Shown in pieces: positions 50-20,516 of a DNA stretch of 33,774 nucleotides; position 1 is the stretch's first letter; every line of letters begins with the position of its first letter. Source of the stretch: Minisyncoccota bacterium (GTDB taxonomy: Bacteria > Patescibacteriota > Minisyncoccia > 2-02-FULL-40-12 > GWA2-44-9); assembly GCA_040899895.1 (NCBI GenBank), contig JBBDZW010000023.1:1-33774 (forward strand), written 5' to 3'. The notes under the pieces are model-generated. The model did no database searches and was not told the DNA's origin. It worked only from the letters and a program-made list of their open reading frames with translations. The position numbers were made by a program, and so were the translations under genes.

Positions 50-802
50 ATGAGAAGCAAGTTCGTCTTCTTTTTCGTTCTCGTCGCCGTTTTTGCGGCG
101 ACGGGATGCGCGACCGGGGGATACCTCGGTCCTCGACCCTACGGGGGGCCACTTGGTGAAGTCGTGGCGGGCAACCTCGCGTTGACCTGCCCCGGCGACG
201 TGTTCGTCGGATCCCCGATCAACAGTTGCCTCCGGCAGCTGGCCAACATCGGTCCGCATTTCGCGGGTTTCCCGATGTACGCAGGCGGCCGTGGTGGTCG
301 CCAGCTCTCACGCACCGAGAAGGTTGCTATCGTCGGCGGCATCGGCGCCGCTGTCGGTGGAGCCGTCGGTGGATGGAAAGGCGCCGCCATCGGAGGCGTA
401 GCCGGAGCGGTTATCACGACAGTGATGACCCGCGGTGGTGGACAACAGCCACAGCAACAGCCGACGACTTCGCAGTCGCCAGTCGTTCAACCCCAGGCCC
501 AGTCGGGTTTGTGGGGGCCAGGCGCGCCGTTCAGCGGCCGTCCGAACTGCATGCAGGTTCTTGGCAGGGAAGTGACCCTTCAGAATCTGACGGCTGACCC
601 CCTCAAGATTTTCTTGGAGGGACAGTACCAGAATCCGGTTGCTGTTATCCAGCCGAGGGAATCGGCATGTGCCGACCCCAATCTGCGCTACGAGGCGCAA
701 GTGCTCCAGACGGCGGTTTCGGCCAACGGCTGGGTCGGTGGAACTCAACATCAGCCTCGGAAGCCCGAGGCGAGGCCAGGACTCATCCTGGTTTGGAGGT
801 AG
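50..802 (+). CDS. Putative lipoprotein with a glycine-zipper segment
   Basis: N-terminal signal MRSKFVFFFVLVAVFAATGC has a lipobox-like ATG|C. The Gly/Ala-rich AIVGGIGAAVGGAVGGWKGAAIGGVAGAV resembles glycine-zipper (17-kDa surface antigen-like) domains. A GGGGAGG RBS lies upstream of the ATG. The ORF sits in a ~65% GC block. Confidence 0.55.
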   Translation: MRSKFVFFFVLVAVFAATGCATGGYLGPRPYGGPLGEVVAGNLALTCPGDVFVGSPINSCLRQLANIGPHFAGFPMYAGGRGGRQLSRTEKVAIVGGIGAAVGGAVGGWKGAAIGGVAGAVITTVMTRGGGQQPQQQPTTSQSPVVQPQAQSGLWGPGAPFSGRPNCMQVLGREVTLQNLTADPLKIFLEGQYQNPVAVIQPRESACADPNLRYEAQVLQTAVSANGWVGGTQHQPRKPEARPGLILVWR

Positions 803-804
803 TG

Positions 805-1284
805 ATGGCAACAAGGGCAGAGACGGAAGCCCGGATTGTTCAACTCCAGGCGGAGTTGAACAATCCGCAGGCCGGGTTGACCGGCGCGGCGCTGGCGGCA
901 AGAAACGGCCGTCTTCAGCGAGAAATCACTGAAGCTCGCGCCGAATTGAATCGGCCGGCGACAGCGCCGGTCGCTACCATCGGCGGAACCACTCCGATTA
1001 CGCCGACGACACCTCCTCCGTGTCCGTCGCCGCAACCTTCATCGGGAATCGGTTGGGGGTGGTTCGTCGTCGTACTGGCGATTCTCATGCTCATCGTGAG
1101 TATGATATCGCTTGGCCGGAAAGAATCGACGGTGCAATACGCGCCACCGACGCCGGTGGTCAAAACACCACCACCGACAACTCGTCAACCCGAACAACAG
1201 TTCCGGTCATTCCGGGACTGCATGTTCGCCTACGGCGAGCGCAGAGAGCTCGCCGACGGGAGGTGCGACCACCTCTCGCGATAG
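805..1284 (+). CDS. Hypothetical single-pass membrane protein (coiled-coil N-terminus, Pro-rich linker, one TM)
   Basis: The ATG at 805 lies 2 nt after the upstream TAG stop. MATRAETEARIVQLQAELNN is a coiled-coil-like heptad sequence. The TM segment is GWGWFVVVLAILMLIVSMISLG. GC-rich codon usage matches the upstream ORF. Confidence 0.5.
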   Translation: MATRAETEARIVQLQAELNNPQAGLTGAALAARNGRLQREITEARAELNRPATAPVATIGGTTPITPTTPPPCPSPQPSSGIGWGWFVVVLAILMLIVSMISLGRKESTVQYAPPTPVVKTPPPTTRQPEQQFRSFRDCMFAYGERRELADGRCDHLSR

Positions 1285-19196: not shown

Positions 19197-19386
19197 ATTT
19201 GTACTCTCATTGGTAATTAACTACCAAGCAAAATACACCAATAGTGTGTATTTTGCAAGAATACCAAATGAGTCCGGCAAAGTATGTTTATGTTGGCCTT
19301 CGACAAGCGCTTCGTCGTGAGCTCAGCACCGAACGGCTCAGGCCACTTCGCCTCGGCTCGCACTGAGCGAGCGAAGCGAGTCGAAG

Positions 19387-19406
19387 TGTTGCGGGGGTGG
19401 GATTCG
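19387..19406 (-). repeat. Inverted 20-nt copy of the tRNA-fMet 3' end (T-loop to discriminator)
   Basis: The reverse complement of 19387-19406 is CGAATCCCACCCCCGCAACA, identical to 20422-20441. Confidence 0.85.
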
Positions 19407-19407
19407 G

Positions 19408-20088
19408 CTACAACCTCGGTATTGTTAAAAAACGGTCGGTTAAGGCATTCAATTTATATAATAAATTTGTGCTCTTTTTGATTCGAAAATCCATAGTTCC
19501 ATAATAAGTATTGTGGTTTTCGTATTTCTTGGCTGGCCTTGTTTTAACATATCTAATATTCGTAAAATTCTTTGGTTTTGTTCTTAGATATCGTCTCCAG
19601 AAAGAAACTATTTCTTTCTCGCGGTTTTTGTGTATGGCATTGATATGTATAGAGAACTTAATGTCCATATTATTTATATTATAAAAACGGCGAAACCAGT
19701 CTATCATAAATCTAATAATCTTTTTGTTACTATTAGTAAATTGAACTGTTCCGTATGTCTTTGTGCCTTCCGCAAGATACAAGGCCAATCCTGTCATAAA
19801 GAATTCCCTTTCAGATAATTTATTAAGTTTCTTTGCCTCTTGAACTGCTATTTTTATCGCATTTATTCTTTTCATTTTCTGAAAATTAGCGCCCTTTAAT
19901 CGTCCCTGCAAAATCAAATGCCCCTTTTCGCTTAAGATCTTATTTAGTTGCTGCTCAGTTAACTTGATATCTCTGCACCAGAGGCTAATAGTACTTTGGG
20001 ATACTCCTATTATCTTGGATATGTCTTTGACGCTTTTCCCTGAACTTCTTAATTTCCGAGCCTTAATTTTTAAATCCGATTTAGCCAT
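19408..20088 (-). CDS. Free-standing HTH plus single-LAGLIDADG-motif homing-endonuclease-like protein
   Basis: The N-terminus has a resolvase-type HTH (GKSVKDISKIIGVSQSTISLWC). The central LAGLIDADG-like motif is FFMTGLALYLAEGTK. The ORF lies 79 nt from the intron-containing tRNA-fMet, on the opposite strand. Confidence 0.7.
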   Translation of the reverse strand: MAKSDLKIKARKLRSSGKSVKDISKIIGVSQSTISLWCRDIKLTEQQLNKILSEKGHLILQGRLKGANFQKMKRINAIKIAVQEAKKLNKLSEREFFMTGLALYLAEGTKTYGTVQFTNSNKKIIRFMIDWFRRFYNINNMDIKFSIHINAIHKNREKEIVSFWRRYLRTKPKNFTNIRYVKTRPAKKYENHNTYYGTMDFRIKKSTNLLYKLNALTDRFLTIPRL

Positions 20089-20127
20089 ATGTAGTTATAC
20101 TACATTATACGGCAATTGCTTTTTATT

Positions 20128-20157
20128 TTGAAGTTGCGATTTGTTTATAAGTATAAT
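20128..20157 (+). promoter_or_regulatory. Candidate promoter for tRNA-fMet
   Basis: TTGAAG (20128-20133), an 18-nt spacer, then TATAAT (20152-20157). The tRNA 5' end is at 20168. Confidence 0.45.
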
Positions 20158-20167
20158 ATTATTAAAT

Positions 20168-20439
20168 CGCGGGGTAGAGCAGCGGCAGCTCGTCAGGCTC
20201 ATAATCAAATTGTGACCTATCATAGTAATATGATATGGAAAACTCTCTAAACTGCTGGAAACCCTAATTCACATGAATGGGCAATCAGCAGCGAAATCCT
20301 GAGTTAACCGAAGGAGACGTTCAGAGACTATAATGGGAGCATCCGCCGGTCGGCGGATGATGGTATAGTCCGACACTGTCAGTAATGGCAGCCAACAGTC
20401 AGAACCTGGAGGTCGTGGGTTCGAATCCCACCCCCGCAA
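20168..20439 (+). tRNA. Initiator tRNA-fMet (anticodon CAU) interrupted by a group I intron; CCA not encoded
   Basis: Exon 1 is CGCGGGGTAGAGCAGCGGCAGCTCGTCAGGCTCAT. Exon 2 is AACCTGGAGGTCGTGGGTTCGAATCCCACCCCCGCAA. The joined exons closely resemble E. coli tRNA-fMet, including the C1xA72 mismatch. Confidence 0.9.
20203..20402 (+). ncRNA. Group I intron (IC3-like, ORF-less, 200 nt) in the tRNA-fMet anticodon loop
   Basis: The 5' exon ends in U (CAU|) and the intron ends in G (20402). A GTGAC internal guide candidate lies at 20212-20216. The motifs GGAAACCCTAA, TCAGAGACTA and ATAGTCCGAC parallel cyanobacterial tRNA introns. GACTA and TAGTC can form P7. Confidence 0.8.
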
Positions 20440-20516
20440 CATTCGGAACCCAAAATCCCCATAATGGGGACTTTGGTTTCATTGCCAATTCACCGGATTA
20501 GATTTAGATTTAGGAT

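What the first reader, a model, noticed from the sequence alone, without database searches (positions are those of the whole stretch)
19408..20105. Free-standing HTH plus single-LAGLIDADG protein beside an ORF-less intron
The tRNA-fMet intron has no ORF. A 226-aa protein with a resolvase-like HTH and one LAGLIDADG-type motif (GLALYLAEGTK) is encoded divergently 79 nt away. This resembles the trans arrangement of free-standing homing endonucleases that mobilise or exclude neighbouring introns. Alternatively it could be a domesticated DNA-binding regulator.

Its ATG is directly abutted by a 7-3-7 palindrome, ATGTAGT-TAT-ACTACAT (20089-20105), which overlaps a TATAAT-like box on the minus strand. 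That suggests autoregulation and a near-leaderless transcript.
Basis: partly seen in the sequence, partly recalled or inferred. Interest (0 to 1): 0.6.

Follow-up and report, generated by a model that had tools for sequence, protein, structure and literature searches.

The report
Stand-alone endonuclease gene beside split tRNA
Beside the intron-split initiator tRNA gene of this ultra-small (CPR/Patescibacteria) bacterium sits a 226-codon gene for a DNA-binding, LAGLIDADG-type nuclease-like protein. It belongs to a large family I could not find described. The family parks against tRNA genes and comes and goes like a selfish homing-endonuclease gene; cutting has not been shown.

Summary
There is a 226-aa ORF (19408-20088, minus). 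It lies 79 nt from, and divergent to, a tRNA-fMet gene split by an ORF-less 200-nt group I intron, and a perfect 7-3-7 palindrome abuts its ATG.

The protein has an N-terminal HTH and one LAGLIDADG-like core:
- Glu107 and Lys110 are invariant.
- The family profile hits the second motif of I-DmoI (E 0.002).
- Structural Z is 6-8 to LAGLIDADG domains.
- A symmetric dimer is modelled through the motif helix.
- No Pfam LAGLIDADG model matches.

The family is large (7,806 cluster representatives). It is multi-copy in this order, with 5 copies in this genome, and usually sits directly upstream of a tRNA gene.

At the fMet locus the gene is a ~700-nt optional insert between divergent fMet and Met tRNA genes. 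Fifteen relatives have an empty site and a congener has a decayed copy. It co-occurs with the intron (8/10 against 7/35 genomes), but each also occurs alone. Two relatives carry the same nuclease core inside an fMet intron.

A 20-nt inverted copy of the tRNA 3' end follows the ORF, and the ORF-tRNA module is inverted between relatives.

Best reading: a free-standing homing endonuclease loosely partnered with the intron. This scan has noted the family on other genomes before.

The parts
19408..20088 (-). 226-aa ORF with an N-terminal HTH and a single LAGLIDADG-like core (protein P0001)
19957..20088 (-). Residues 1-44: three-helix HTH of resolvase/transposase type
   Evidence: Pfam matches below threshold. 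VIA gives Z 4.6-6.1, rmsd 1.1-2.6 A over 40-44 residues.
19423..19812 (-). Residues 93-222: LAGLIDADG-like alpha-beta-beta-alpha-beta-alpha-beta-beta-alpha core
   Evidence: AF2 model with pLDDT 89.6. VIA hits to TliVMA intein HE, WhiA, I-DmoI, E-DreI and I-Vdi141I at Z 6.1-8.0. I-DmoI profile hit, E 0.002.
19759..19791 (-). Motif GLALYLAEGTK; Y104, E107, G108 and K110 are invariant in 38 homologues
19387..19406 (-). Inverted 20-nt copy of the tRNA-fMet 3' end (CGAATCCCACCCCCGCAACA), 1 nt after the ORF stop; left boundary of the invertible module
20422..20441 (+). Matching arm: the true 3' end of tRNA-fMet plus 2 nt
20089..20105 (.). Perfect 7-3-7 palindrome ATGTAGT-TAT-ACTACAT between the -10 box and the ATG
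   Evidence: conservation
20104..20132 (-). Promoter-like site for the ORF (TTCAAA-17-TATAAT), giving a leader of about 9 nt with no Shine-Dalgarno sequence
   Evidence: The -10 box is conserved in all relatives.
20128..20157 (+). Promoter-like site for tRNA-fMet (TTGAAG-18-TATAAT); its -35 box overlaps that of the ORF
20168..20202 (+). tRNA-fMet 5' exon, ending in the anticodon CAU
20203..20402 (+). ORF-less group I intron at position 36/37
   Evidence: RF00028, 94.4 bits; ARAGORN i(36,200)
20403..20439 (+). tRNA-fMet 3' exon; C1-A72 mismatch, no encoded CCA
20446..20480 (+). Terminator-like hairpin after tRNA-fMet
19294..19386 (-). GC-rich ~90-nt hairpin directly after the tRNA-end copy; presumed terminator of the ORF
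   Evidence: -45.6 kcal/mol; 58% GC against 43% for the window; unique in the genome
20874..20947 (+). Elongator tRNA-Met, the tRNA that overlaps the ORF stop codon in sister lineages

Best explanation
The ORF is a free-standing homing-endonuclease gene of a large LAGLIDADG-like family that I could not find described.

Shown:
- The protein has an N-terminal HTH and one LAGLIDADG-type core with an invariant Glu/Lys pair.
- It is modelled as a symmetric homodimer through the motif helix.
- The gene is an optional ~700-nt insert in the short spacer between the divergent tRNA-fMet and tRNA-Met genes.
- It is under purifying selection where intact and decayed in a congener.
- It does not follow host relatedness.
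- It is enriched beside intron-bearing fMet genes.
- Its nuclease core also occurs inside an fMet intron in two relatives.

Inferred:
- The dimer cuts a (pseudo)palindromic site in or next to the tRNA-fMet/Met pair of genomes that lack the insert.
- Repair from a filled donor then copies the gene in, often dragging the nearby intron along by co-conversion.
- The intron and local sequence changes keep the carrier's own tRNA gene uncut.

The 20-nt inverted copy of the tRNA 3' end is a rearrangement scar. It now lets the ORF-tRNA module flip by recombination without harming either gene. The palindrome between the -10 box and the ATG may be an operator for self-repression.
For: Fold and motif:
- E107, G108 and K110 are invariant in 38 homologues down to 24% identity, and the Glu is kept in nearly all paralogues.
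- The family profile matches the second LAGLIDADG motif of I-DmoI (GLYVAEGDKT) at E 0.0018-0.0026.
- The top VIA matches are LAGLIDADG domains: 7qsu Z 8.0 (rmsd 3.4, 83 aligned), 8dy9 WhiA 6.9 (3.1, 85), 2vs8 I-DmoI 6.5 (3.0, 81), 1mow 6.3 (3.3, 87) and 3e54 6.1 (2.6, 78).
- An Atlas cluster named as a LAGLIDADG homing endonuclease matches at TM 0.57/0.60.

Dimer model:
- The score is 0.67 against a best control of 0.00. That mark was reached by 20 of 30 proteins solved as pairs of one chain and by 1 of 23 solved as single chains.
- The runs agree in at least 95% of contacts and partner pLDDT is at least 82.
- The interface is residues 88-107, with E107 facing E107.
- Like homodimers (I-CreI, I-MsoI) are solved, so this pass may come from memory and shows likeness only.

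Mobility:
- The empty site, fMet(-) and Met(+) 69-212 nt apart, is seen in 15 relatives; filled sites are seen in 10 of the 45 surveyed relatives.
- G002, a congener, holds a pseudogene with N-terminal and internal deletions.
- 52 of 61 relatives hold 1-9 family copies.
- ORF identity to G000 is 75% in another genus (G015) but 67% and 45% in congeners G003 and G001. The AI-2E-type transporter (AI-2E_transport, PF01594) encoded ~2 kb downstream of the ORF gives 76%, 84% and 84% for the same three genomes.
- dN/dS is 0.05-0.16.

Intron link:
- The intron is present in 8 of 10 genomes with the ORF and in 7 of 35 without it (odds ratio 16, Fisher p 0.0009; the genomes are related, so this overstates).
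- G039 and G043 carry the family core, without the HTH, inside an fMet intron (E about 1e-18).

tRNA docking:
- 25 of 44 assessable family loci have a co-oriented tRNA within -64 to +63 nt of the ORF end, and the stop codon is often the tRNA's U8-A9-G10.
- In this genome the figures are 3 of 5 family members against 9 of 480 other frames.
Against: - No cleavage data exist and no target site is known.
- No Pfam LAGLIDADG model matches the window's protein even at E <= 10, nor any of 38 family members at E <= 0.01. Foldseek against PDB found nothing. Z values of 6-8 lie in the range where unrelated folds can appear.
- Strong purifying selection, conserved synteny and up to 9 intact copies in 0.5-1 Mb genomes would also fit a useful host function.
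- Two intact copies sit beside unsplit fMet genes (L011/G001, L034/G006). The enzyme therefore cannot simply cut every unsplit fMet gene.
- The fMet intron of L006 carries an unrelated canonical LAGLIDADG_1 ORF, so the intron has other means of mobility.
Confidence: 0.55

Rival explanations
1. Strict collaborative (trans) homing. The enzyme recognises exactly the intron insertion site (36/37) of unsplit tRNA-fMet genes. The ORF-less intron depends on it for mobility and in turn protects the carrier genome, as with F-CphI and the psbA intron or MobE and the nrdB intron in phages.
For: - The ORF lies 79 nt from an ORF-less intron.
- All 10 loci of the window's subfamily have the intron.
- Co-occurrence has an odds ratio of 16.
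- The anticodon arm is a DNA palindrome centred within 2 nt of the insertion site, which would suit a homodimer (read from the sequence; inference).
- The model itself is described in the review PMC3984707.
Against: - Intact ORFs sit beside unsplit fMet genes in G001 and G006.
- Seven genomes have the intron with no free-standing ORF.
- Most paralogues flank tRNAs without introns.
- The L006 intron carries its own, unrelated LAGLIDADG gene.
Confidence: 0.2
2. A domesticated DNA-binding factor, WhiA-like in principle. It binds the divergent promoter region or the tRNA genes and regulates tRNA or its own transcription, with no mobility.
For: - dN/dS is 0.05-0.16.
- The position is syntenic across genera, and each paralogue group keeps the same tRNA partner.
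- The palindrome lies between the -10 box and the ATG.
- WhiA is among the best structural matches, at Z 6.9.
Against: - The catalytic Glu and Lys are invariant, whereas WhiA has lost its catalytic residues (the WhiA point is from my own knowledge).
- Related genomes have empty sites, and a congener carries a pseudogene.
- Similarity does not follow host relatedness.
- The same core is found inside introns.
- The palindrome is not kept as a palindrome in relatives.
Confidence: 0.15
3. A trans-acting maturase that helps the ORF-less fMet intron fold and splice, as some LAGLIDADG proteins do for their own introns.
For: Adjacency to and co-occurrence with the intron. LAGLIDADG maturases are known (my own knowledge).
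Against: The intron exists without the ORF in 7 genomes and the ORF without the intron in 2. Most family members flank unsplit tRNAs. The HTH and the conserved catalytic pair point to DNA.
Confidence: 0.05
4. A dedicated inversion system. The protein acts on the two inverted tRNA-end copies to flip the ORF-tRNA segment as a switch.
For: - Perfect 20-nt inverted repeats bound the module exactly.
- Both orientations are seen among relatives.
- The N-terminal domain is a resolvase-type HTH.
Against: - There is no recombinase catalytic domain.
- Both genes carry their own promoters and terminators in either orientation, so nothing obvious is switched.
- The repeat is decayed or absent in 7 of 10 subfamily loci.
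Confidence: 0.03

Closest known systems
Collaborative (trans) homing in phages: F-CphI with the psbA intron of cyanophage S-PM2, and MobE with the nrdB intron (Zeng et al. 2009 and Bonocora & Shub 2009, as cited in review PMC3984707)
   Same: [quoted passage not shown] The gene and intron are separable but tend to occur together. Relatives exist in which an endonuclease ORF sits inside the intron, which is the end state that model predicts.
   Different: Here the setting is a bacterial chromosome and a tRNA gene, not a phage protein-coding gene. The enzyme is LAGLIDADG-like with an added HTH. The target is unknown. The ORF also occurs beside unsplit copies, and most of its family has no intron nearby.
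I-DmoI (archaeal rRNA-intron LAGLIDADG endonuclease), C-terminal domain
   Same: It is the only solved protein found by sequence profile (E 0.002). It shares the motif type xLYxAEGxK, with Glu and then Lys three residues later, and it gives a structural match (Z 6.5, rmsd 3.0, 81 aligned).
   Different: I-DmoI is a two-domain monomer encoded in an intron. This protein has one core, is predicted to be a homodimer like I-CreI, carries an N-terminal HTH, and is free-standing.
Phage T4 SegB, a free-standing homing endonuclease in the T4 tRNA gene cluster (from my own knowledge)
   Same: An endonuclease gene is wedged between tRNA genes. tRNA genes are its likely conserved target and its homology arms.
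   Different: SegB is a GIY-YIG enzyme in a phage. Here a LAGLIDADG-like family is multi-copy in a cellular genome and often overlaps the tRNA 5' end.
WhiA (two degenerate LAGLIDADG domains plus an HTH; transcription factor)
   Same: It combines the LAGLIDADG fold with an HTH, and it gives a structural match (Z 6.9 / 5.7).
   Different: WhiA has two cores in one chain, a C-terminal HTH and no catalytic residues, and it is a conserved single-copy gene. None of these holds here.

Membership tests
LAGLIDADG homing endonucleases (single-motif, homodimeric type) | Motif helix ending in a conserved acidic residue followed by Gly | tested here: met
   GLALYLAEG; E107 and G108 are invariant in 38 homologues and kept in most paralogues
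LAGLIDADG homing endonucleases (single-motif, homodimeric type) | alpha-beta-beta-alpha-beta-beta-alpha core fold | tested here: inconclusive
   The AF2 secondary-structure order fits. The top VIA hits are LAGLIDADG domains, but only at Z 6.1-8.0. Foldseek against PDB gave no match.
LAGLIDADG homing endonucleases (single-motif, homodimeric type) | Match to curated family models (Pfam LAGLIDADG_1/2/3) | tested here: not met
   No hit for the window's protein even at E <= 10, for its core at E <= 1, or for any of 38 members at E <= 0.01. The only link is the family profile against I-DmoI, E 0.002 over 51 residues.
LAGLIDADG homing endonucleases (single-motif, homodimeric type) | Dimer formed by packing of the two motif helices, bringing the acidic residues together | tested here: met
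   In silico only: score 0.67 against a best control of 0.00. The mark was reached by 20 of 30 proteins solved as pairs of one chain and by 1 of 23 solved as single chains. Runs agree in at least 95% of contacts and pLDDT is at least 82. The interface is residues 88-107. The pass may reflect memory of solved homodimers.
LAGLIDADG homing endonucleases (single-motif, homodimeric type) | Site-specific double-strand cleavage leaving 4-nt 3' overhangs | not testable with these tools
   Needs purified protein and substrates
LAGLIDADG homing endonucleases (single-motif, homodimeric type) | Selfish-element population pattern: optional insert at a fixed site, decay, incongruent spread | tested here: met
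   Empty sites in 15 relatives; a pseudogene in congener G002; identity ranking at odds with host ranking
Collaborative (trans) homing pair | [quoted passage not shown] | tested here: met
   79 nt apart; the intron has no ORF
Collaborative (trans) homing pair | [quoted passage not shown] | not testable with these tools
   Indirect evidence is mixed. Two intact ORFs lie beside unsplit fMet genes.
Collaborative (trans) homing pair | Gene and intron inherited together | tested here: inconclusive
   The intron is present in 8 of 10 genomes with the ORF and 7 of 35 without it, but both single states exist and the genomes are kin
WhiA-like domesticated LAGLIDADG regulators | Catalytic acidic residues lost; two cores in one chain; C-terminal HTH; ubiquitous single-copy gene | tested here: not met
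   E107 is invariant; there is one core; the HTH is N-terminal; distribution is patchy and multi-copy
Serine invertase systems (Hin/Gin type) | Serine recombinase catalytic domain next to a segment bounded by inverted repeats | tested here: not met
   Only the HTH resembles resolvase (HTH_7, E 0.008); there is no catalytic domain

The most novel reading that the evidence does not exclude
These genes would form a distinct class of chromosomal parasite of tRNA genes in ultra-small bacteria. The class would be a diversified endonuclease family in which each lineage is matched to one tRNA gene pair. Each gene docks so tightly that the tRNA's own U8-A9-G10 serves as its stop codon. tRNA 5' processing of a shared transcript would then remove the stop codon and so throttle enzyme production. 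The family would also seed introns with endonuclease genes, and would create inverted tRNA-end copies that let whole tRNA modules flip.
Probability: 0.15. Interest if true: 0.75.

Novelty: new variant of a known kind. Interest (0 to 1): 0.55.

Why it matters
Free-standing endonucleases that cooperate with ORF-less introns are known from a few phage genes. They are the favoured model for how mobile introns arise.

Here the same stages appear side by side in cellular genomes at one tRNA locus:
- empty site
- intron alone
- endonuclease gene alone
- both together
- an endonuclease core inside the intron
- a decayed copy

That makes the model testable on natural variation. It also gives a working annotation to thousands of 'hypothetical' or 'XRE-family regulator' genes in Patescibacteria, and it helps explain why their tRNA genes are so often split and rearranged. 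If the enzymes are active, they would be a pool of new tRNA-gene-specific nucleases.

Tried and rejected
- Foldseek against PDB gave only weak OmpA/MotB-like rows (E >= 0.012) and no LAGLIDADG hit.
- Pfam and NCBIfam gave no LAGLIDADG model; they returned only weak HTH and transposase-HTH hits.
- hhalign of the family against the canonical LAGLIDADG_1 ORF in the L006 intron found nothing.
- The search for related loci with the 38-sequence alignment failed for lack of a conserved stretch. A 22-sequence subset worked.
- dS was saturated in most pairs, so dN/dS rests on 6 pairs.
- I considered the tRNA-end copy as an attachment-site duplication of an integrated element. I rejected this because the copies are inverted, not direct, and no integrase is present.
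- I considered it as a tRNA-like 3' minihelix on the mRNA. I rejected this because the 5' strand is missing and it stays unpaired in the fold.
- I tried to derive the scar from a single inversion between fMet and Met. That would leave chimeric tRNAs, which are not seen, so the origin is unresolved.
- The GC-rich hairpin has no other copy in the genome or in the fetched loci.
- Four literature searches found no description of this family.

Full report
**Observation**

The 226-aa ORF at 19408..20088 (minus) is real. It lies 79 nt from, and divergent to, a tRNA(CAU) gene. That gene has a 5' exon at 20168-20202, a 200-nt group I intron at 20203-20402 (RF00028, 94.4 bits, E 3.9e-24) and a 3' exon at 20403-20439. 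The C1-A72 mismatch marks it as an initiator tRNA.

The intron has no ORF. The 7-3-7 palindrome at 20089-20105 is perfect. About 5% of simulated spacers of this composition contain such a palindrome. Promoter-like sites for the ORF (TTCAAA-17-TATAAT, ending at 20104) and for the tRNA (TTGAAG-18-TATAAT, 20128-20157) lie back to back. This places the palindrome between the -10 box and the ATG and leaves a leader of about 9 nt.

**The protein**

Pfam sees only sub-threshold HTH matches and no LAGLIDADG model, even at E <= 10. The same holds at E <= 0.01 for all 38 aligned homologues.

Four lines of evidence nevertheless point to a LAGLIDADG-type core:
- In the alignment, Y104, E107, G108 and K110 of GLALYLAEGTK are invariant down to 24% identity.
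- A profile of the family hits only I-DmoI among solved structures. The match is to its second LAGLIDADG motif, GLYVAEGDKT, at E 0.0018-0.0026 over 51 residues.
- The AlphaFold model (pLDDT 89.6) shows an HTH, a long helix, and then an alpha-beta-beta-alpha-beta-alpha-beta-beta-alpha core.
- An exhaustive VIA comparison puts LAGLIDADG domains on top: 7qsu Z 8.0 (rmsd 3.4 A, 83 residues aligned), WhiA 6.9 (3.1, 85), I-DmoI 6.5 (3.0, 81), E-DreI 6.3 (3.3, 87) and I-Vdi141I 6.1 (2.6, 78). Residues 1-44 match resolvase, transposase and ParB-type HTHs.

These Z values are modest, and Foldseek against PDB found nothing. The fold assignment therefore rests on the agreement of motif, profile and structure. 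An Atlas cluster named as a LAGLIDADG homing endonuclease also matches (TM 0.57/0.60, 146 residues).

A two-copy model of residues 88-226 passed its test. The score was 0.67 against a best control of 0.00. That mark was reached by 20 of 30 proteins solved as pairs of one chain and by 1 of 23 solved as single chains. The runs agree in at least 95% of contacts, and partner pLDDT is at least 82. The interface is the motif helix, with E107 next to E107. Like homodimers are solved, so this shows likeness and not binding.

**The family**

The family profile finds 7,806 cluster representatives at E <= 0.001 and 1,325 at E <= 1e-30. Atlas clusters are unnamed and mostly from CPR phyla. Among 61 relatives, 52 hold 1-9 copies, and this 0.48-Mb genome holds 5.

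The members sit against tRNA genes. Of 44 assessable loci, 25 have a co-oriented tRNA starting -64 to +63 nt from the ORF end. In many of these the stop codon TAG is the tRNA's own U8-A9-G10. In this genome the figures are 3 of 5 members against 9 of 480 other long frames (Fisher p 1e-4).

Each subgroup keeps the same tRNA partners across genera: Arg(tcg)-ORF-Lys(ctt), Phe-ORF-Gly(gcc), ORF-Gln(ttg), and fMet-ORF-Met.

**The fMet locus**

I located the fMet gene in 48 relatives and cross-checked each against intron hits, family hits and fetched sequence. Three loci are cut by contig ends, which leaves 45 assessable genomes:

| State | Genomes |
|---|---|
| ORF and intron | 8 (one of them a pseudogene) |
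| Intron without a free-standing ORF | 7 |
| ORF beside an unsplit fMet gene | 2 (G001, G006) |
| Neither | 28 |

The odds ratio is 16 and Fisher p is 0.0009. The genomes are related, so this overstates the association.

In 15 genomes without the ORF, fMet(-) and elongator Met(+) form a divergent pair only 69-212 nt apart. In filled sister loci the ORF occupies that spacer and its stop codon lies in Met. The gene is therefore an optional ~700-nt insert.

Further points bear on mobility:
- Congener G002 holds a copy that has lost its N-terminus and an internal segment.
- ORF identity to the window's copy is 75% in another genus (G015), but 67% and 45% in congeners G003 and G001.
- The AI-2E-type transporter (AI-2E_transport, PF01594) encoded ~2 kb downstream of the ORF gives 76%, 84% and 84% for those same three genomes.
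- Where dS is not saturated, dN/dS is 0.05-0.16.

**Link to introns**

In G039 and G043 the fMet gene carries a longer group I intron at a different site (U33|C34). That intron encodes, on the antisense strand, a protein with the family's nuclease core but no HTH (E about 1e-18 to the family profile). The fMet intron of L006, which lies next to a 79%-identical free-standing copy, instead carries an unrelated canonical LAGLIDADG_1 ORF. About 17 of roughly 165 family hits in the 61 genomes lie within 300 nt of a group I intron.

**The inverted tRNA-end copy**

A perfect 20-nt copy of the tRNA 3' end (19387-19406) starts 1 nt after the ORF stop, inverted relative to the real end at 20422-20441. 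Among the ten loci of this subfamily, the copy is perfect or near perfect in three (window, L006, L012). It is decayed in five and absent in two.

The ORF-tRNA module has one orientation relative to the M16 peptidase gene (Peptidase_M16, PF00675) downstream of tRNA-Met in the window, L008, L009, L012 and L032. It has the opposite orientation in L001, L002, L011, L031 and L033. Inversion across these repeats explains the window's layout exactly. Both genes keep their promoters and a terminator in either state, so I read the repeat as a scar that permits flipping, not as a switch. Its origin is unresolved.

**Reading**

The best-supported explanation is a free-standing LAGLIDADG-type homing endonuclease gene that lives in the fMet-Met spacer and often travels with the fMet intron. 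The pairing is loose, so strict collaborative homing (review PMC3984707) is only one possibility. Cleavage, the target site and self-repression are all inferred.

A domesticated regulator is less likely. The catalytic pair is invariant, sites are empty in relatives, a congener has a pseudogene, and the core also occurs inside introns.

**Previous work**

I found no paper that describes the family. This scan has noted it on at least 54 other genomes. Two of those notes say the gene is never found beside unsplit copies, and my survey contradicts that.

Noticed in passing
window 19294-19386 (minus): A GC-rich ~90-nt hairpin (-45.6 kcal/mol; 58% GC in a 43% GC window) lies directly after the tRNA-end copy. 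It is unique in the genome. Relatives have ordinary terminators at this place.
   Followed up: partly
G000 contigs C9:1373-1655, C28:3282-3505, C42:7527-7782: Three more tRNA genes of this genome are called with insertions: Asp(gtc), Lys(ttt) and Thr(ggt). The Asp insertion is confirmed as a group I intron (RF00028, 52.3 bits).
   Followed up: partly
L006:1829-2272 (+): The 640-nt fMet intron of a relative carries a canonical single-motif LAGLIDADG_1 ORF (LAGLIDGEG) antisense to the tRNA. It sits alongside the free-standing HTH-LAGLIDADG gene.
   Followed up: partly
L087:1552-2415 and L088:1506-2296 (G039, G043): In these two relatives the fMet group I intron sits at U33|C34 rather than 36/37. 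It encodes, antisense, the family's nuclease core without the HTH.
   Followed up: partly
L016:2372-2441 (= G002:C49): A second fMet-like tRNA (Rfam 43.6 bits, not called by ARAGORN) lies about 470 nt downstream of the decayed ORF and is co-oriented with it.
   Followed up: no
proteins P0085, P0098, P0104, P0110, P0112: Some family representatives are 500-576 aa long with two or three full-length matches. They are either tandem fusions or merged calls of adjacent paralogues.
   Followed up: no
G000:C31:1249-1983 and loci L047-L053: A paralogue subgroup has the motif LYWRE(G/R) instead of LYWAEG. It has no tRNA gene directly downstream.
   Followed up: no
G000:C47:2290-3090 (-), 135-944 (+), 37107-37724 (-): Three paralogues in this genome sit directly upstream of tRNA-Lys(ctt) (stop codon inside the tRNA), tRNA-Gly(gcc) and tRNA-Arg(cct).
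   Followed up: partly
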